Position numbers and translations under genes: made by a program. A stretch of 64,000 nt of DNA from NCBI GenBank assembly GCA_964520985.1, contig CAZFPB010000002.1, forward strand, positions 150,115 through 214,114, given 5' to 3'. The notes beneath the pieces are model-generated. The model was not told the DNA's origin. It saw nothing but the letters and a program-made list of their open reading frames with translations, and made no database searches. The DNA is from an uncultured Pseudobdellovibrionaceae bacterium (lineage in GTDB: Bacteria; Pseudomonadota; Alphaproteobacteria; Micavibrionales; Micavibrionaceae). Below, in pieces: positions 17,786 through 44,348 of this stretch; within the stretch, counting starts at the first letter, position 1; each line of letters starts with the position of its first letter.

Positions 17786-17927
17786 TGGCATGTAGCTCAG
17801 CGGTAGAGCTGGTGACTGTTTTGGTTGTAATTCAACCATTATCGTTTCTATGAGACGATAAGAATTGATGTATAAACATCACAGATTAATCACCCGGTCG
17901 TAGGTTCGATCCCTACCATGCCAGCCA
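17786..17927 (+). tRNA. interrupted tRNA gene: intact 5' and 3' halves separated by a 76-nt three-hairpin insert in the anticodon loop; CCA encoded
   Basis: 5' half is TGGCATG-TA-GCTC-AGCGGTA-GAGC-T-GGTGA. 3' half is TCACC-CGGTC-GTAGG-TTCGATC-CCTAC-CATGCCA-G-CCA. Acceptor pairs 7/7. Anticodon stem GGTGA/TCACC encloses an insert with hairpins TGGTTG/CAACCA, TTATCGT/ACGATAA and GATGT/ACATC. Confidence 0.55.
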
Positions 17928-28852: not shown

Positions 28853-29059
28853 ATGTCGACACGTGCGAAAGTGCGTCGTCATCTTATGTATGACTATTTT
28901 GTTCATAAAGATTCCACCACATCTCAATTCTATCTTGATAAACTGGAACGAATGAGTGACGAAACGCTGGAACAGCTTTACGACAAACTGTTCCAGTTTA
29001 AAGGTTTTCAAGAGTGGGTTAAATTCTTACACCAACAATTGGATCAACAAGATGAGTAA
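28853..29059 (+). CDS. hypothetical small protein
   Basis: Start moved to ATG 28853 (RBS GAGGA). Confidence 0.35.
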   Translation: MSTRAKVRRHLMYDYFVHKDSTTSQFYLDKLERMSDETLEQLYDKLFQFKGFQEWVKFLHQQLDQQDE

Positions 29060-29507
29060 CGTCATTTTTCTGGATGTTGATGGTGTAATGGCACCTACCA
29101 AGATGGTATTTCATCCTTCTCATGTAAAAGGATCTGTCATTAATATTTTTGATCCAGTTGCTGTTGGAATGATTAATCAATTGCCGATGGATGTGGGACC
29201 GTGCAGTATTGTACTGACAAGTGTATGGCGTAAACAAGGATTCGATCGTTGTCAGGCTATGTTCTCAATGAACAAAGTAACAGTTCCGTTTCATGAACAA
29301 TGGTGTACAGATCCTACAATGTCAAATCGGACAAGGTCAATCACAGAATGGATTGATCAATATGGTGCTTCAGGTTATCGATATCTGGTAGTAGATGATG
29401 AAGCGTTGGATTGTACTATAGGTCATTTGTTTCTTCGTACTTGTACTGATAACGGATTTATGTTTTCCGATTATGAAGAAATGAGATTAATTTTGGAGAC
29501 ACAATAA
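29052..29507 (+). CDS. HAD-superfamily phosphatase-like protein
   Basis: N-terminal MSNVIFLDVDGVM is a DxDG(T/V) motif I. Confidence 0.5.
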   Translation: MSNVIFLDVDGVMAPTKMVFHPSHVKGSVINIFDPVAVGMINQLPMDVGPCSIVLTSVWRKQGFDRCQAMFSMNKVTVPFHEQWCTDPTMSNRTRSITEWIDQYGASGYRYLVVDDEALDCTIGHLFLRTCTDNGFMFSDYEEMRLILETQ

Positions 29508-30359: not shown

Positions 30360-30681
30360 CAATGATGATTTTGTACAACAAGTGAATCAAGTAATTCACG
30401 ATTCGACTCAACACCTGCGTGATTTATTGACTAAAGTCAATTATCTAACGGCTGAACAAAACATTGACTATTTAAACAAAGTTGGTAATGTATTAACGAA
30501 TATTTGTACAGTTCAACAATCGCTCATTAATCATTTAAATGAGCGAGTAACCAACAAAGATAGAATATTCGAAGAAATCGTTTCTACACTTCGCGTGATG
30601 GCAGATAAGATGAACGACACGGATGACACAGCATCTCGTGCGTTACACATGATTCAAAAATATACAGGAAAACTACCATGA
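30349..30681 (+). CDS. hypothetical protein
   Basis: Start at ATG 30349 (MMSDNDD). Confidence 0.4.
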   Translation: MMSDNDDFVQQVNQVIHDSTQHLRDLLTKVNYLTAEQNIDYLNKVGNVLTNICTVQQSLINHLNERVTNKDRIFEEIVSTLRVMADKMNDTDDTASRALHMIQKYTGKLP

Positions 30682-31070
30682 ACTATCCAAAACAAATTAT
30701 TGTGATTCGAAAGGATCTCAATATGAGAAAAGGTAAAATGGTTTCTCAAGGTGCACATGCATCTATGGGAGCCGTGTTATCTGTAATGCAAAAAGAATAT
30801 CCGGATATGTGGCATTTGGCCATGGATAAACATCCAGCTCTTCAAGAATGGTTGAATGGACCATTCACTAAAATTACTGTGTCAGTTGACAGTGAACAAG
30901 AACTATTGGATCTGCAGGAAAAAGCAAAAGAAGCAGGTTTTATTAATTGTCTGATTACTGACAATGGCACTACTGAGTTCGGTGGCGTTCCGACTAACAC
31001 TGCACTTGCGATTGGACCTGCATACAGTGATGAACTTGCTCCACTGACTGGACATTTGAAACTGCTATGA
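30678..31070 (+). CDS. peptidyl-tRNA hydrolase, PTH2 family
   Basis: QIIVIRKDLNMRKGKMVSQGAHAS matches the PTH2 signature (vvRxDLxMxxGKxaAQxxHA). 130 aa. Confidence 0.6.
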   Translation: MNYPKQIIVIRKDLNMRKGKMVSQGAHASMGAVLSVMQKEYPDMWHLAMDKHPALQEWLNGPFTKITVSVDSEQELLDLQEKAKEAGFINCLITDNGTTEFGGVPTNTALAIGPAYSDELAPLTGHLKLL

Positions 31071-31337: not shown

Positions 31338-32663
31338 ATGTTCGTTACCACAGTAACTGTTGCACTCATTGGCTTCTTGGTTTGGATGTTGGTGGCATTT
31401 GCACTTCGTAAAGTCGTACCGACTAATGAAGTTCATATTGTCCAATCTGCTAAACAAACAATTTCTTATGGTAAAGACCATGCTGCAGGAAACACTTATT
31501 ACAAGGTTCCAAGTTGGATTCCTCGTTATGGTGTAACCACAATTATGCTTCCTGTTTCCAACTTCGACCAAGACTTGCCTGCGTACGATGCGTATGACCG
31601 TGGGCGCGTTCCGTTCGTCGTTGATATCAAAGCATTCTTCCGAATCGACAATCCAGAAATGGCTGCGCAGCGGGTGTCGTCTTTCAATGAACTATTGGAA
31701 CAACTGCGTGCAATTCTTCAAGGTGCTATTCGTAGTATTCTGGCATCTAAGGATATTGAAGAAATCCTTCAAGGTCGCAGTGAAATTGGTACAATGTTTA
31801 CTGAGGAAGTTGATGAACAACTGAAACAGTGGGGTGTTAGCACTGTCAAAAACATTGAACTAATGGACATTCGTGACTCAGCGGGTTCGCAAGTTATTGC
31901 GAATATCATGGAGAAGAAAAAGTCTCTGATTGAAAAAGAAAGCCGTATTGAAGTGGCAAATAACAAAAAAGAAGCAAGCATTGCTGAAATTAGTGCAGCT
32001 CGCGACACCGAAATTCAACGACAAGCTGCCGCTCAGCAAATCGGTGAACGTACTGCTCAGAAAGACCAAGCAATTGGTATTGCAAATGAGCAGGCTCAGC
32101 AGAACATTAAAGAGCAGCAGAAAGTAACTACCGAAAAAGAAATTGCAGTTGTTAAAGTTGCTGAAACTGGTCGTGCTCAGGTTCAACGTGAAGTGCAAGT
32201 TATTGCTGCTAATCAACAACGCGAAACCGAAGTTATTAAAGCTGAAGGTCAGAAGCAAACTACCGTTCTGGTTGCTGAAGGTAATCTGCAAAGCACTCGA
32301 CTGGAAGCTGAAGGTATTCAAGCAGAAGGTGTGGCTCGTGCTGATGCTGAGAAAGCAATGCAACTGGCACCTGTTGAAGCGCAGATCGTTCTTGCGAAAG
32401 AAATTGGTGAAAACCAAGGTTACCAGCAATATCTGATTAGCGTCCGCACGATCGAAAAAGATCAAGTTGTTGGTATCGAACAAGCCAAAGCTCTGTCTGA
32501 TGCAGACATCAAAGTTATCGCAAACAGCGGTGATGTTAACAGCGGCATGAACAGCGTGATGGATCTGCTGTCTGCCAAAGGTGGAACTGCTCTGGGTGCT
32601 GCTGTGGAAGCATTCAAACAGACTCCTGCTGGTGAAGCCTTGCTTAACAACATCGGTAAATAA
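31338..32663 (+). CDS. SPFH/band-7 (flotillin/YqiK-like) membrane protein
   Basis: N-terminal TM helix (VTVALIGFLVWMLVAFAL). SPFH-like core (RVPFVVDIKAFFRIDNPEMAAQRV). A long Ala/Gln/Glu coiled-coil and a C-terminal Gly/Ala tail. 441 aa. Confidence 0.55.
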   Translation: MFVTTVTVALIGFLVWMLVAFALRKVVPTNEVHIVQSAKQTISYGKDHAAGNTYYKVPSWIPRYGVTTIMLPVSNFDQDLPAYDAYDRGRVPFVVDIKAFFRIDNPEMAAQRVSSFNELLEQLRAILQGAIRSILASKDIEEILQGRSEIGTMFTEEVDEQLKQWGVSTVKNIELMDIRDSAGSQVIANIMEKKKSLIEKESRIEVANNKKEASIAEISAARDTEIQRQAAAQQIGERTAQKDQAIGIANEQAQQNIKEQQKVTTEKEIAVVKVAETGRAQVQREVQVIAANQQRETEVIKAEGQKQTTVLVAEGNLQSTRLEAEGIQAEGVARADAEKAMQLAPVEAQIVLAKEIGENQGYQQYLISVRTIEKDQVVGIEQAKALSDADIKVIANSGDVNSGMNSVMDLLSAKGGTALGAAVEAFKQTPAGEALLNNIGK

Positions 32664-32693
32664 CTCTCCTGGTTGACCTGTAGTTAAAAAGAA

Positions 32694-32718
32694 GGGACAG
32701 TAAAATGTCCCTTTTTTC
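32694..32718 (+). terminator. rho-independent terminator
   Basis: GGGACA-GTAAAA-TGTCCC followed by TTTTTTCG. Confidence 0.7.
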
Positions 32719-32755
32719 GTTTTAACGACATTATAGTTTCGATAAGGTGCTCTAA

Positions 32756-33142
32756 ATGACAATCACTGTACCTATTTTGCCGGTTGATACTCCTACGATT
32801 AACAATCGGATTTATACAACTGAAGCTGTGGAACAAGCATTACAGAAAGTGAAAGAGCCAGTATTTGGTGGATTTGTTAATGATTATGAAGGCATTGATA
32901 TCGCTATAGAAAATTATGCATTTCGTGCATCAAATCTTAGAATTCACGATGGAAATGTTATTGCTGAAATTGAAATTCTTAACACACCGAAAGGTTTGGT
33001 ATTAGAAGATTTGCTGAATAGTGTTTGTCCAATGAGATTTGCAGCAGCAGGTACATGTAGAATTGAGAATCAACAGATAACCGAATACGAAATCCGTACT
33101 GTACAATTAGTTGCTGAGGGCGTATTTGAAGAAGGAAATTAA
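32756..33142 (+). CDS. hypothetical protein
   Basis: 128 aa. Confidence 0.4.
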   Translation: MTITVPILPVDTPTINNRIYTTEAVEQALQKVKEPVFGGFVNDYEGIDIAIENYAFRASNLRIHDGNVIAEIEILNTPKGLVLEDLLNSVCPMRFAAAGTCRIENQQITEYEIRTVQLVAEGVFEEGN

Positions 33143-33143
33143 T

Positions 33144-34166
33144 ATGGATAAGTTATTAACACGTGATCAGTTTCGAACTCAGGTATTCGAAAGGGATAAA
33201 CATAAGTGCGTGTTTTGTGACAACCCTGCAGTAGATGCGCATCACATTATGGAACGTAGATTATGGCCTGATGGTGGTTATTATCTATCTAATGGTGCAA
33301 GTGTTTGTCAAACACATCACATTATGTGTGAGACGACGGAAATTTCACTAGATGACGTTCGTGAAGCGTGTGGAATTCTTAAACCAATCATTCCGCCACA
33401 TTTGTATGGTGATCAGCCATATGACAAATGGGGCAATCCTATTCTTGCAAATGGGCAACGAGTAATTGGTGAATTGTTCTTTGACGAAAGCGTTCAAAAA
33501 ATTCTCGGTCAAGGTAAAGTTCTTGATCTGTTTACCCATTATGTCAAATATCCAAGAACCCATCATTTGCACTGGTCGGAAAATGTTAATGACGATGATC
33601 GTGTAATTGAATCGTTAAAACATTTTGAAGGAGAACGAGTTATTGTCACCACTAAGATGGATGGTGAAAGTACTACGATGTACACCGACTATATACATGC
33701 TCGCAGTGTTGACGGTCGTTCTCACCCATCACGAGATTATGTCAAACAACTGTGGAGCAGGTTTGCACACGATATTCCTGAACGGTGGCGAATTTGTGGT
33801 GAGAATCTGTATGCTCGTCACTCAATTACATATGATGACCTTCCAAGCTATTTGATGGGTTTTTCTGTATGGAATGAACGAAACGTTGCGTTGTCGTGGG
33901 ATGACACTGTCGAATGGTTTGAGTTACTTGGAATTGAATGTGTTCCTGTATTGTATGATGGTATCTGGAATGAAACTACTATTAAGCAGTTGTGGAATTC
34001 ATCGATGTGGGACAATTGCGAAGGATATGTAGTTCGAGTAGCTGATGAGATTACATACGGGGACTTTCGTCATAAAGTCGGCAAGTTTGTAAGGAAAGAT
34101 CACATTCAAACGATTAAACATTGGATGTATGGACAACCTATTGTTCCTAATAAATTGAGGAAGTAG
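33144..34166 (+). CDS. HNH-nuclease-domain / RNA-ligase (nucleotidyltransferase KxDG) fusion protein
   Basis: Start at ATG 33144 (RBS AAGGAA). N-terminal CVFCDNPAVDAHHIMERRLWPDGGYYLSNGASVCQTHH is an HNH motif. Central VIVTTKMDGEST is the ligase motif I (KxDG). 341 aa. Confidence 0.5.
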   Translation: MDKLLTRDQFRTQVFERDKHKCVFCDNPAVDAHHIMERRLWPDGGYYLSNGASVCQTHHIMCETTEISLDDVREACGILKPIIPPHLYGDQPYDKWGNPILANGQRVIGELFFDESVQKILGQGKVLDLFTHYVKYPRTHHLHWSENVNDDDRVIESLKHFEGERVIVTTKMDGESTTMYTDYIHARSVDGRSHPSRDYVKQLWSRFAHDIPERWRICGENLYARHSITYDDLPSYLMGFSVWNERNVALSWDDTVEWFELLGIECVPVLYDGIWNETTIKQLWNSSMWDNCEGYVVRVADEITYGDFRHKVGKFVRKDHIQTIKHWMYGQPIVPNKLRK

Positions 34167-34168
34167 TA

Positions 34169-34597
34169 ATGCTGTGTATAAACTGTGGCGGAACTCTCTG
34201 TACAACTGTAGACAGTGTTAAACAGACATCACTGTTACTTGGCTGTTTGTTAACTGATCCTGTTGAAGTCGAAAAGTGCATGAACTGTGACAAAATTGTA
34301 TTTCCGTACTATTCAGCAAAACAGGTGGGTGAATTCGTACGACACGCGGAACAAAAAGCAATTGAACAACTGCCAATTGGCGAATTTATTACGATTAAAC
34401 AGGTTAGTGAAATTCTTGAAATTTCTATCGAGAAAATTCGAGATGATAAACGAATTTCACGTGGATTTATCATTCAGCATAAAGTTGGACCAGTAACACT
34501 TTATTTCCGACCATCAGTTGAACGATATAAACAAATTGGTGATGGTAGGATCCTTTTACGGAAGACATCAATCAATGAACGTGGGTATCTACCATAA
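34169..34597 (+). CDS. hypothetical protein with N-terminal Cys4 zinc ribbon
   Basis: CINCGG...CMNCDK; 142 aa. Confidence 0.4.
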   Translation: MLCINCGGTLCTTVDSVKQTSLLLGCLLTDPVEVEKCMNCDKIVFPYYSAKQVGEFVRHAEQKAIEQLPIGEFITIKQVSEILEISIEKIRDDKRISRGFIIQHKVGPVTLYFRPSVERYKQIGDGRILLRKTSINERGYLP

Positions 34598-34784
34598 TAA
34601 TTTAGGATCTGGGGATTGGATCAAGGTTATTGCAACTAAAAACGGCAAACAAACAATTCTGTTTGAAGGCCATCGTTTAATTGCAGGTGATCTACGTTGG
34701 ATCCTCACTTCAGTAATGAGTATGGGTCCAATTGAAACAGTAATGAATTTTCAAATGACTGACGAAGAAATCAATAACATATAA
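34575..34784 (+). CDS. possible small protein (start uncertain)
   Basis: ORF 34518-34784 overlaps the upstream gene; an internal ATG at 34575 reduces the overlap. Confidence 0.25.
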   Translation: MNVGIYHNNLGSGDWIKVIATKNGKQTILFEGHRLIAGDLRWILTSVMSMGPIETVMNFQMTDEEINNI

Positions 34785-34794
34785 GGAAAACAAA

Positions 34795-36312
34795 ATGGCA
34801 AATAAAAAACTCAACCCAAAAGGTAAAGATATTAAAGGTAATATCGTTGCGGTTGCTGCGAAACATGATCGCCAGTTGGCTCGTTCTGGTAATGGAAATC
34901 TTCAGTTTGTAAAAACTGCTCGTTCCGATTTGTATGCTATCATTACGTCTACGCTGTATGGACGTGATACGTATTATAATTCTGGTGACCAAATCGTCGC
35001 TCGACTGAAACAACAGATCGACGCTGTGGTTAATGAAGAAGATGGGCCAGACTTTATTGCAAACTTGATTATTCATGCTCGTACAGAAATGCACATTCGA
35101 ACGATTCCGATCGTTGCAACTGTGCATCTTGCAAAGTCATTGCGTGATCAAGGTAAGACGTTTGAATCAATGCGTCGTCTTGTATGTGATGTTATTACTC
35201 GTGCAGATCAGATTACTGATATGTATGCGTATTCGCTAACCGTATTCGGCGACAAGAAAAAAGTGCCAATGGCAATTAAGCGTGGTGTTGCTGACGCATT
35301 TAACAAATTTGATGAATATCAATTTGCTAAGTACAACCGCAGCAATGAATTGAAAATGCGTGACGTATTACGAATTGTTCACCCTGTTGCTGCAAACGTG
35401 GCACAAGGTGAGATTTTTAGTCGTATTATGTCTGATACGTTAGCTACTCCATATACGTGGGAAACTCAGTTGAGCGAAAATGGTCAGCGTGATCCCAAAG
35501 AACGTAAATCGCTTGACGAATTATGGACAGAGCTGTTCACGTCTGGAAAGATGGGTTATATGGCTCAGTTGCGTAATCTGCGTAACTTGGAACAGAATGT
35601 ATCTCATCAACCGACATTGAAAGCAGTTGCAAGTGTGATTGCAGATCCAGATCGTGTTGAAAAATCGAAACAATTGCCTTTTGATTTTACAGAGGCATAT
35701 AAAGCAGTAAGTAATTCGACCTTGAAGACTGCTGTTTCACGTGCGATCGATCACAGTGTTGGTAATATTCCAGCACTTGGTAAAAACGTATGGATCATCG
35801 TTGATGCGTCTGGATCGATGAGTGGATTTCCACGTGAAATGTCAACGATGTTCGCCGCCGCGATTTACAAGAATGCGACGTTCAATCCTGAAGTTGAGAA
35901 TCATGCGCTAACGGTTTTTGGATCGAAAGCACATATGGTTACTGATTTGGATTGCAACCAATCCATTTTTCATATTGCACAGAAGTTTCAGAAAAACTTG
36001 GGAGCAACAGATTTTGACGAAGCGTTACAATTAAAATCAAAACTTGGTTTTAATCCTGACACAGTAATTGTGTTCACGGACAATGAAATTGATGATATGC
36101 CATATGGCAATCTTGCTTATGCATTTGATGATAAATGTGTCAAAATTGCTGTTAACTTGGAAGCGTCGGTAACGACTCCTTTCATTCGTGAAAATGGATG
36201 GTACGAATTGGCAGGTTGGTCTACTAACATGTTTAAGTTCGTTCGAGCTATTCGTGACAAACGAACAGCAGTTGATGTTCTAAGTGTTCCATACGGAACA
36301 GTGCAATATTAA
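34795..36312 (+). CDS. rsr: Ro60/Rsr ortholog (TROVE domain + von Willebrand factor A domain)
   Basis: C-terminal vWA MIDAS motifs: WIIVDASGSMSG (DxSxS), LGATDFDEAL, VIVFTDNEIDD (FTDNE identical to human Ro60). N-terminal helical region with LYGRDTYY (compare GSEGGTYY) and LRIVHPVAA (compare RIHPFHIL). 505 aa. Confidence 0.75.
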   Translation: MANKKLNPKGKDIKGNIVAVAAKHDRQLARSGNGNLQFVKTARSDLYAIITSTLYGRDTYYNSGDQIVARLKQQIDAVVNEEDGPDFIANLIIHARTEMHIRTIPIVATVHLAKSLRDQGKTFESMRRLVCDVITRADQITDMYAYSLTVFGDKKKVPMAIKRGVADAFNKFDEYQFAKYNRSNELKMRDVLRIVHPVAANVAQGEIFSRIMSDTLATPYTWETQLSENGQRDPKERKSLDELWTELFTSGKMGYMAQLRNLRNLEQNVSHQPTLKAVASVIADPDRVEKSKQLPFDFTEAYKAVSNSTLKTAVSRAIDHSVGNIPALGKNVWIIVDASGSMSGFPREMSTMFAAAIYKNATFNPEVENHALTVFGSKAHMVTDLDCNQSIFHIAQKFQKNLGATDFDEALQLKSKLGFNPDTVIVFTDNEIDDMPYGNLAYAFDDKCVKIAVNLEASVTTPFIRENGWYELAGWSTNMFKFVRAIRDKRTAVDVLSVPYGTVQY

Positions 36313-36337
36313 AAAAGGGGCTTAAGCCCCTTTTTTA
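36311..36337 (+). terminator. rho-independent terminator (bidirectional: A-run / GGGGC-TTAA-GCCCC / T-run)
   Basis: AAAAAAGGGGCTTAAGCCCCTTTTTT sits between convergent genes. Confidence 0.75.
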
Positions 36338-36669
36338 TTGTCTATTGGTTTTGGTGCTGTTACGTCATGAATCCAAATTGCCCATTTATATAATCGCACA
36401 TAAGCAAGCAATTGCATAATTGGATGTGCAATCAAGTTGTGGATAGACCATACGTGTTTCCGCCACATTAATCGTTTGCCTTCTAGGGCTGATGGTTTAA
36501 TAGCCCACAGCAATTCAATGGCAAAGAAACCTGATACTGTGTCAACTCCATGTGTGTGATAAACAGTAAGTTGCAGGTGTTCAATATTTGTGTCATCAAC
36601 ATACTGAATGGTTGATTTTTCTACAACACCATTATCTGTTTTGAAAAATTGGTTCATAATGTAATCCAA
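36322..36669 (-). CDS. hypothetical protein
   Basis: 115 aa on the - strand, abutting the family A tandem array. Confidence 0.4.
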   Translation of the reverse strand: MDYIMNQFFKTDNGVVEKSTIQYVDDTNIEHLQLTVYHTHGVDTVSGFFAIELLWAIKPSALEGKRLMWRKHVWSIHNLIAHPIMQLLAYVRLYKWAIWIHDVTAPKPIDNKKGA

Positions 36670-37322
36670 TTGTCGTTGTAGCCAGCATCAATCATTTCTT
36701 CTTGGCACAAGAGAATATCTTTTGTACTGGAATGCTGATTTAGTATTCGTGAAACTTCTTCGCATGTTACAGTATCAAGTTCAATCCAAAATTCATGGTA
36801 TCCATCAACCAATAACCAATACAAAAGACCTGGAATTAGAGTATTAGACATAACACCGATCGTAGATGGATTATCTACTGACAACATAATAGCAGGTTTG
36901 CCATAATGCTTTCCATATGCACTACCAACATACTTAATATAATGATGGATGTTTTTATAGGTAACAATCGGATTTTGTTTACAATTAAATGAACCACCAA
37001 CAAAACTTGGAGCTCCATATAACGATTTTATTTTGTTGCGACTACAGTCAAATGATCCTTTCACTGATTTAGGAGCGCCTATCAGAGTAACCAATTCACA
37101 CTCATCGCAATAAAAGTTACCATTAACAGTATCAAATGTGATGGGTATTTTGCCGCCTTCTATTGACTCTTTACTTAATACGACATCACAATCTGTTGAA
37201 ACTGAATAATCGTCATTAATTGTATATGCAGAAACGTTCCACCAAGTCAAATAAAGTTGGATCATTTTAAGTTTTTGTTGATGAAGATATTCATCACGTG
37301 CTGTTCTTAGAGCGTAGCCCAT
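36654..37322 (-). CDS. paralogous repeat-family protein (family A)
   Basis: C-terminal LLCQEEMIDAGYNDNWITL; internal GNFYCDECELVTLIGAPKSVKGSFDCSRNKIKSLYGAP repeats. Confidence 0.6.
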   Translation of the reverse strand: MGYALRTARDEYLHQQKLKMIQLYLTWWNVSAYTINDDYSVSTDCDVVLSKESIEGGKIPITFDTVNGNFYCDECELVTLIGAPKSVKGSFDCSRNKIKSLYGAPSFVGGSFNCKQNPIVTYKNIHHYIKYVGSAYGKHYGKPAIMLSVDNPSTIGVMSNTLIPGLLYWLLVDGYHEFWIELDTVTCEEVSRILNQHSSTKDILLCQEEMIDAGYNDNWITL

Positions 37323-43160: not shown

Positions 43161-44348
43161 ATGTCTACGTTCAAAGTTCCTGTTACTCAAATCCTCGACA
43201 TTAAACCGATCGACGGCGCCGATAAAATCGAACTGGCAACAATCAAAGGCTATCAAGTTGTTGTTCAGAAAGGTGCGTTTGTGGTTGGCGATTATGTCGT
43301 GTACATTCCTGAAGATTCAATTGTTCCAGCCAACATTCTTCACACTCTAAATTTGACTGGAAAATTGGCTGGTCCTGATAAGAATCGTGTCAAAGCAATT
43401 AAATTGAAAGGCGTTGTGAGTCAAGGTATTGTTCTTCCGACACAATCCTTAGATAACGAAACGTTAATTGTTACGGTTCACCAAAATGATGAAGTTGGAC
43501 AAATCGCCTTGTGTGATCAATTCAACGATGGAGTTAAGACGTCTTATTGTGTACAACCAGACGAAGATGTCGCAACAATATTGCGAATTACCAAATATGA
43601 TCCGCCTATTCCTGTAGCAATGGCTGGTGAAGTGTATAATGCAGGAAAAGATGTGACTGTTCACTTTGACGTTGAGAACCTTAAATCGTATCCTGATGTC
43701 CTTGTGGAAGGTGAACCTGTTATTTTCACCGAAAAAGGTCACGGTACATTTACTGGTATTGGTATTTTGCCACCCTCGCATCGTGGTGGACAGCACATTG
43801 AAGGTAAATTTGTAATCTTCTCCAAAGGATTAGGAGCAGATGGATTGTGCTTTAAAGATAACGAAGCCAATAAAAATAACGTTTACCTTAAAACATTACG
43901 TGAGGCTGGCGTATTGCAAGCACTTAGTGATTATTGGGAAACGATGGTTAATAATGATGAACCAATGTTTATTCTTGGTGAAACGTATGGTGGTAGTGTT
44001 CAAAAAGGAATGAATTACGGAACGAACGTGCCCCAATTTAGAGCATTTAAAATTGTGGTTGGCTTTAGAGGTAATCAACGGTTCCTTGATTACTCAACAT
44101 ATTGGCAAATTATCGCGAAAATGGGGCTTCAAAAAATGCCGGTTTTGTATAGCGGACCATTTACTCAAGAAGCTGTTAAAATGTTCACGTCTGGACTCGA
44201 AACGCTTAGTGGTACTCAGTCCCACATTCGTGAGGGAATTGTAATTGAGCCAGAAATTCCGCGATATGATAACCAGATTGGTCATGTATTGCTCAAATCT
44301 GTTAGTGATGAATACCTGACTATGAAAGGTGTTTCTGATTATCGATGA
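43161..44348 (+). CDS. RNA ligase, Rnl2/Rnl5-like nucleotidyltransferase with N-terminal OB-like domain
   Basis: Motif I VIFTEKGHGTF (KxHGT), motif III FILGETYGGSVQKG, motif IV IREGIVIEPE, motif V VLLKSVSDEYLTMKG. The N-terminal approx. 90 aa resemble an OB/tRNA-binding-like fold. Confidence 0.6.
   Translation: MSTFKVPVTQILDIKPIDGADKIELATIKGYQVVVQKGAFVVGDYVVYIPEDSIVPANILHTLNLTGKLAGPDKNRVKAIKLKGVVSQGIVLPTQSLDNETLIVTVHQNDEVGQIALCDQFNDGVKTSYCVQPDEDVATILRITKYDPPIPVAMAGEVYNAGKDVTVHFDVENLKSYPDVLVEGEPVIFTEKGHGTFTGIGILPPSHRGGQHIEGKFVIFSKGLGADGLCFKDNEANKNNVYLKTLREAGVLQALSDYWETMVNNDEPMFILGETYGGSVQKGMNYGTNVPQFRAFKIVVGFRGNQRFLDYSTYWQIIAKMGLQKMPVLYSGPFTQEAVKMFTSGLETLSGTQSHIREGIVIEPEIPRYDNQIGHVLLKSVSDEYLTMKGVSDYR

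What the first reader, a model, noticed from the sequence alone, without database searches (positions are those of the whole stretch)
33144..34166. HNH nuclease domain fused to an RNA/DNA-ligase nucleotidyltransferase domain
The N-terminal 60 aa carry a complete HNH motif (CxxC...HH...N...C..HH). The central region has a ligase motif I (TKMDGE). A nuclease-ligase fusion is an unusual cut-and-reseal architecture, the reverse of typical repair. It could act in tRNA editing or anticodon swapping, intron-like insert processing (compare the split tRNA), or damage-and-repair of host RNAs.
Basis: seen in the sequence. Interest (0 to 1): 0.6.

Follow-up and report, generated by a model that had tools for sequence, protein, structure and literature searches.

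The report
HNH nuclease fused to RNA ligase
This jumbo-phage gene really does encode an HNH nuclease joined to an RNA-sealing ligase, but the fusion belongs to a large, strongly conserved and already catalogued family whose chemistry nobody has tested, so it is a sound but not new observation.

Summary
ORF 33144-34166 (+, 340 aa) has an N-terminal HNH nuclease fold with every catalytic and zinc residue. A conserved 70-aa module with no solved-structure match follows, then a C-terminal Rnl2-type RNA-ligase adenylyltransferase domain with motifs I, III, IIIa, IV and V. It lacks the C-terminal domain of canonical Rnl2.

The architecture is not unusual. It matches PHROG 24030 end to end. There are full-length homologues in isolated jumbo phages, an archaeal virus and about 70 bacterial and archaeal species, and 530 clusters at 50% identity score below 1e-30. 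The fusion was noted in print in 2021, citing a 2016 survey.

The window places the gene in an RNA-repair and tRNA island. Elsewhere it often sits beside or inside tRNA arrays, or next to HD-Pnk, RtcB or RlaP.

The HNH part is the most conserved segment. Rare lineages have lost either the HNH or the ligase catalytic residues yet keep the dead domain. This suggests the two halves work as one unit on one substrate.

Best reading: an RNA, probably tRNA, repair ligase whose accessory module is an active nuclease that produces ligatable 3'-OH/5'-P ends. No biochemical study was found, and the HNH substrate (RNA or DNA) is unresolved. The tRNA-splicing idea is untested and unlikely.

The parts
33144..34166 (+). 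Whole gene: HNH-RNA ligase fusion protein, 340 aa. Stop is TAG, followed at once by TAA.
   Evidence: ORF list and sequence. Full-length match to phrog_24030, E = 7.9e-142.
33132..33136 (+). Shine-Dalgarno-like AAGGA, 7 nt before the ATG.
   Evidence: Read from the sequence.
33144..33338 (+). HNH (beta-beta-alpha-metal) nuclease domain, aa 1-65.
33207..33320 (+). HNH catalytic and zinc residues: C22, C25, H33, H34 (general base by alignment to the IscB HH pair), N50, C55, H58, H59.
   Evidence: Invariant in 10 divergent homologues. All six scored residues (C22, C25, H34, N50, C55, H59) intact in 295 of 305 family proteins.
33339..33545 (+). Conserved middle module, aa 66-134 (YDKWGNP, GELFFDESVQK). 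It packs with the HNH into one compact unit. No match to any solved structure.
33546..34163 (+). Rnl2-type adenylyltransferase (RNA ligase) domain, aa 135-340. There is no C-terminal domain after motif V.
33651..33668 (+). Ligase motif I, TKMDGE. K171 is the predicted AMP-accepting lysine.
   Evidence: K171, D173 and G174 are invariant in 48 sequences.
33795..33812 (+). Ligase motif III, CGENLY (E220).
   Evidence: E220 is invariant. It aligns with the GE of the window's second ligase.
33858..33872 (+). Ligase motif IIIa, GFSVW (F240).
   Evidence: Invariant in A1.
34020..34037 (+). Ligase motif IV, EGYVVR (E293).
   Evidence: E293, G294, V296 and R298 are at least 90% conserved. Aligned to the second ligase.
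34083..34097 (+). Ligase motif V, KFVRK (K314, R317).
   Evidence: K314 and V316 are at least 90% conserved. R317 is invariant among the 10 sequences of A1.
34795..36312 (+). Context: Ro60-like TROVE + vWA protein. Probably in the same transcription unit, which ends at the hairpin terminator at 36310-36337.
   Evidence: PF05731 at 1.3e-23 and VWA_2. Terminator scan.
28956..29507 (+). Context: HAD phosphatase of the 'Swiss Army Knife' RNA-repair type.
   Evidence: PF18143 HAD_SAK_2, E = 7e-15.
30678..31070 (+). Context: peptidyl-tRNA hydrolase PTH2.
   Evidence: PF01981, E = 1.6e-32.
43161..44348 (+). Context: second RNA ligase, with an N-terminal OB fold plus PF09414 (Rnl5-like layout).
   Evidence: PF21189 at 4.6e-18 and PF09414 at 2.3e-16.

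Best explanation
The gene encodes a two-activity nucleic-acid repair enzyme belonging to the phage's RNA (most likely tRNA) repair toolkit.

Shown:
- The C-terminal half is an ATP-dependent RNA-ligase adenylyltransferase domain of the Rnl2 structural type, with a complete active site.
- The N-terminal 134 residues are a compact unit made of a complete HNH nuclease and a conserved extension.
- The protein has no other accessory domain.

Inferred mechanism:
1. K171 is adenylylated by ATP.
2. AMP is passed to a 5'-phosphate.
3. A 3'-OH attacks to seal the break.

The HNH unit would take the place of the C-terminal domain of Rnl2, or the N-terminal OB domain of Rnl5, as the substrate-holding module. 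Because its catalytic residues are kept, it would also cut. HNH chemistry leaves 3'-OH and 5'-phosphate ends, which are exactly the ends this class of ligase needs. A cut that trims a damaged or blocked end could therefore be sealed by the same polypeptide without separate healing enzymes.

The two halves act as one unit on one substrate rather than as two unrelated enzymes. The identity of the HNH substrate (RNA, RNA:DNA hybrid or DNA) is not established.

The confidence of 0.45 is for this functional reading as a whole. The domain identities and family membership are near certain (about 0.95), a role in RNA repair is about 0.6, and nuclease-ligase coupling by trimming is about 0.3-0.4.
For: Domains and active sites.

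Coupling of the two halves:
- The full-length model has pTM 0.89, so the domains have a fixed relative position.
- The HNH is the most conserved segment of the family.
- Of 305 full-coverage family proteins, 265 keep both active sites.
- Ten have lost HNH catalytic residues but keep the fold, mostly with the zinc cysteines.
- About 22, a Saprospiraceae/Bacteroidota clade, have lost the ligase lysine and motifs III-V but keep the roughly 170-aa dead domain behind an intact HNH. Retention of a dead partner argues that each half needs the other physically.

RNA-repair context in the window: CCA-adding enzyme, tRNA array, HAD_SAK phosphatase, PTH2, Ro60/TROVE and a second RNA ligase. No + strand terminator separates the gene from Ro60.

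Context elsewhere:
- HD-Pnk end-healing enzyme lies 1-3 genes downstream in 7 loci.
- RtcB lies upstream in 3 loci.
- RlaP is nearby in 4 viral loci and HAD_SAK in 3, plus the window.
- tRNA genes lie within 10 kb in 28 of 64 viral loci, within 2 kb in 15, and 5-6 nt from the gene in L086 and L097.

Identity of 66-75% across more than 100 clusters from unrelated hosts fits a universal, conserved substrate such as tRNA. Inteins sit immediately after motif I in five homologues, a position typical of functionally critical sites.
Against: - No biochemical data exist for any family member.
- All structural neighbours of the HNH are DNA nucleases: IscB, McrA, GVE2, Cap5, Cas9.
- Where HD-Pnk is present, end healing is already provided, so an HNH trimming role is not obviously needed.
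- Ligase-only homologues of about 210 aa exist and interleave with fused forms in a poorly resolved tree. The ligase can therefore work without the HNH.
- Gene neighbourhoods are not conserved overall. In 9 viral loci the neighbours are a DNA ligase and, in 6, a DEDDh exonuclease, which would suit a DNA role.
Confidence: 0.45

Rival explanations
1. Two independent activities on one chain, the published suggestion. The HNH is a DNA nuclease used against host or co-infecting phage DNA. The ligase separately repairs RNA cut by host defences.
For: Proposed in PMC7824862. All structural relatives of the HNH are DNases. Either catalytic centre can be lost without loss of the other. The gene has DNA-metabolism neighbours in some phages.
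Against: - The fusion, the conserved middle module and a rigid predicted domain arrangement persist across hundreds of clusters.
- Dead domains are retained instead of being deleted.
- No conserved immunity or self-protection partner was found.
- Conflict nucleases usually evolve fast, yet here the HNH is the slowest-evolving part.
Confidence: 0.25
2. The HNH unit is only a nucleic-acid-binding accessory of the ligase, a stand-in for the Rnl2 C-domain or the Rnl5 OB domain. It does not cut in vivo.
For: Ligases of this superfamily need an accessory domain for the AMP-transfer step (established for T4 Rnl2 and DraRnl/NgrRnl; my knowledge). This protein has no other accessory domain. Ten family members lack HNH catalytic residues but keep the fold.
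Against: H34, N50 and H59 are intact in 295 of 305 proteins. The ligase-dead clade keeps a fully intact HNH, which makes no sense for a mere ligase accessory.
Confidence: 0.12
3. Self-contained cut-and-rejoin enzyme that removes short inserts from phage tRNAs. The HNH cuts both junctions and the ligase joins the exons.
For: - An insert-bearing tRNA-Asn lies in the window at 17786-17924. The anticodon loop carries an insert of about 67-70 nt, too short for a group I intron.
- Two more insert-bearing tRNAs passed the Rfam threshold in other phage loci that carry the gene: L086:1752-1866 and L159:18023-18149.
- HNH ends are directly ligatable.
- The gene is often next to tRNA arrays.
Against: - No co-occurrence test was possible.
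- Most loci with the gene show no such tRNA within the 10-kb flanks scanned, and the many bacterial carriers are not expected to have tRNA inserts.
- The inserts share no common junction motif.
- An ordinary tRNA-Asn(GUU) lies 460 nt upstream, so the disrupted copy may be decaying.
- The ligase-dead clade could not splice.
Confidence: 0.05
4. The HNH is a homing endonuclease that mobilises the ligase gene, making this a selfish cassette.
For: Distribution is sporadic with high identity across unrelated hosts, and neighbours vary.
Against: - Homing endonucleases decay in cycles and evolve fast. Here the HNH is the best conserved part and is structurally integrated.
- The gene is itself a target of intein homing elements.
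- No conserved insertion site was seen.
Confidence: 0.05

Closest known systems
PHROG 24030, the 'HNH-Rnl2' fusion proteins. Examples: Caulobacter phage CcrBL9 gp226, Ralstonia phage RsoM2USA_242, Acinetobacter phage ME3 gp200, Halovirus HGTV-1 gp233.
   Same: Same three-part architecture over the full length. Identity is 64%, 58%, 47% and 29% respectively. All catalytic residues are shared.
   Different: Nothing structural; this is a member. The neighbours differ in every genome. None has been studied biochemically.
T4 RNA ligase 2 (Rnl2) and trypanosome editing ligase REL1
   Different: No Rnl2-type C-terminal domain, since the protein ends 22 aa after motif V. Sequence similarity to T4 Rnl2 is undetectable by profile comparison. 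The accessory module is N-terminal and is a nuclease.
Rnl5 ligases (Deinococcus DraRnl, Naegleria NgrRnl)
   Different: The accessory domain there is an OB-like fold; here it is an HNH plus a novel extension. The window's other ligase (43161-44348) has an N-terminal OB-fold domain (PF21189) plus PF09414, an Rnl5-like layout.
IscB / Cas9 HNH domains, EcoKMcrA, GVE2 HNH nickase
   Same: Same fold and the same C-x2-C...HH...N...C-x2-H-H signature. 24% identity to the IscB HNH over 70 residues.
   Different: Those enzymes cut DNA and are attached to guide-RNA, methyl-reader or terminase partners. Here the partner is a ligase and the substrate is unknown.
Heal-and-seal RNA repair systems (T4 Pnkp + Rnl1; bacterial Pnkp/Hen1; HD-Pnk + ligase cassettes; rsr-rtcBA operon)
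   Same: Same biological setting. The gene is adjacent to HD-Pnk, RtcB, RlaP, HAD_SAK and Ro60 in various genomes.
   Different: Healing in those systems is by kinase and phosphatase. A nuclease joined to the ligase is not part of any characterised system. Bacterial LigD (phosphoesterase + ligase, DNA end joining) is the nearest functional analogy, from my own knowledge and not tested here.

Membership tests
HNH (beta-beta-alpha-metal) nuclease superfamily | Beta-beta-alpha-metal fold | tested here: met
HNH (beta-beta-alpha-metal) nuclease superfamily | Catalytic His (general base), structural Asn and metal-binding His | tested here: met
   H34 aligns with the second His of the IscB HH pair. 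N50 and H59 are in register. These residues are invariant in A1 and A4.
HNH (beta-beta-alpha-metal) nuclease superfamily | Zinc-binding Cys/His pairs flanking the core | tested here: met
   C22, C25 and C55 are invariant. Position 58 is H, C or rarely D, and C62 is often present.
HNH (beta-beta-alpha-metal) nuclease superfamily | Metal-dependent phosphodiester cleavage | not testable with these tools
   Needs enzyme assays.
ATP-dependent RNA ligase, PF09414 (Rnl2-like adenylyltransferase clade) | Motif I KxDG with the nucleophilic lysine | tested here: met
   K171-M-D-G. These residues are invariant in 48 sequences.
ATP-dependent RNA ligase, PF09414 (Rnl2-like adenylyltransferase clade) | Motifs III, IIIa, IV and V, and the nucleotidyltransferase fold | tested here: met
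ATP-dependent RNA ligase, PF09414 (Rnl2-like adenylyltransferase clade) | Covalent lysyl-AMP formation and 3'-OH/5'-P sealing | not testable with these tools
   No biochemical report was found for the family.
Canonical Rnl2 (T4 Rnl2 / REL1) | Signature C-terminal domain required for AMP transfer to the nick | tested here: not met
Rnl5 (DraRnl / NgrRnl) | N-terminal OB-like domain | tested here: not met
   The N-terminal module is an HNH plus an unmatched extension.
HNH-Rnl2 fusion family (PHROG 24030; described by Burroughs & Aravind 2016 and Iyer et al. 2021) | Full-length collinear HNH + middle module + ligase architecture | tested here: met
   phrog_24030 matches aa 3-340 against profile positions 2-342 of 342, E = 7.9e-142. 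17 phage records have at least 80% coverage. Literature statement.
Free-standing HNH homing endonuclease | Rapidly evolving, separable nuclease placed beside or inside a conserved host gene, with a defined target site | tested here: not met
   The HNH is the most conserved segment and is predicted to be rigidly packed. No conserved insertion site was seen. Site-specific cleavage itself is not testable here.
Known anti-phage defence systems (PADLOC) | Match to a defence-system protein model | tested here: not met
   No PADLOC hit for the protein, its ligase-dead relatives or their neighbours.

The most novel reading that the evidence does not exclude
The protein is a one-polypeptide cut-and-rejoin RNA enzyme. 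Its HNH makes 3'-OH/5'-P incisions in structured RNA: damaged tRNA anticodon or acceptor ends, or the short protein-dependent inserts seen in some jumbo-phage tRNAs such as 17786-17924. Its own ligase domain then reseals the RNA. This would be a nuclease-driven RNA repair or splicing route that needs no kinase or phosphatase healing step and has no characterised precedent.
Probability: 0.12. Interest if true: 0.85.

Novelty: new member of a known kind. Interest (0 to 1): 0.38.

Why it matters
The family is large, spread by horizontal transfer across phages, archaeal viruses and many bacterial phyla, and unusually well conserved. Yet no member has been purified. Nobody knows what the nuclease cuts, or whether cutting and sealing are coupled.

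This study adds two points to the published note:
- The HNH is the best-conserved part of the protein.
- Lineages that lose one catalytic centre keep the dead domain.

Together these make coupling a concrete, testable hypothesis. If the HNH acts on RNA, this would be a new logic for RNA repair: trim by nuclease, then seal. It would also explain how jumbo phages with large tRNA arrays resist tRNA-cutting host defences. If the HNH acts on DNA, the protein is a combined weapon and repair kit. Either result would also be of practical interest, as a compact nick-and-seal enzyme.

Tried and rejected
- Near-identity DNA search of 32000-37000 against 50,697 phage records: no match. The phage itself is not in that collection. 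The exact protein is on a 330-kb NCBI contig, without a name. Its contig could not be retrieved.
- Conserved synteny: none of the window's neighbours (Ro60, orf128, orf142, SPFH, PTH2) recurs regularly next to the gene in 80 viral and 71 cellular loci. The two 142-aa neighbours in the window and in Leptospira are unrelated.
- SPFH/Band_7 near the gene: found in only 7 of about 150 loci. I judged this too weak to claim.
- Link to the Runella slithyformis 'LIG' next to HD-Pnk. That protein adenylylates but does not seal standard substrates (PMC6097658). No Runella protein appeared among the 120 listed hits of a profile search seeded with the HD-Pnk-linked clade, and the original paper is not held. 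Membership is not established.
- Burroughs & Aravind 2016 could not be read.
- PADLOC: no hits.
- Y RNA next to Ro60: no Rfam hit. There is only a moderately stable hairpin at about 34611-34706, z = -2.65.
- Neighbour-joining tree of the ligase domain: star-like. It cannot say whether the fusion arose once.
- ARAGORN intron predictions: most were not confirmed by Rfam.
- The XacN1 ligase-only gene has no separate HNH gene upstream.
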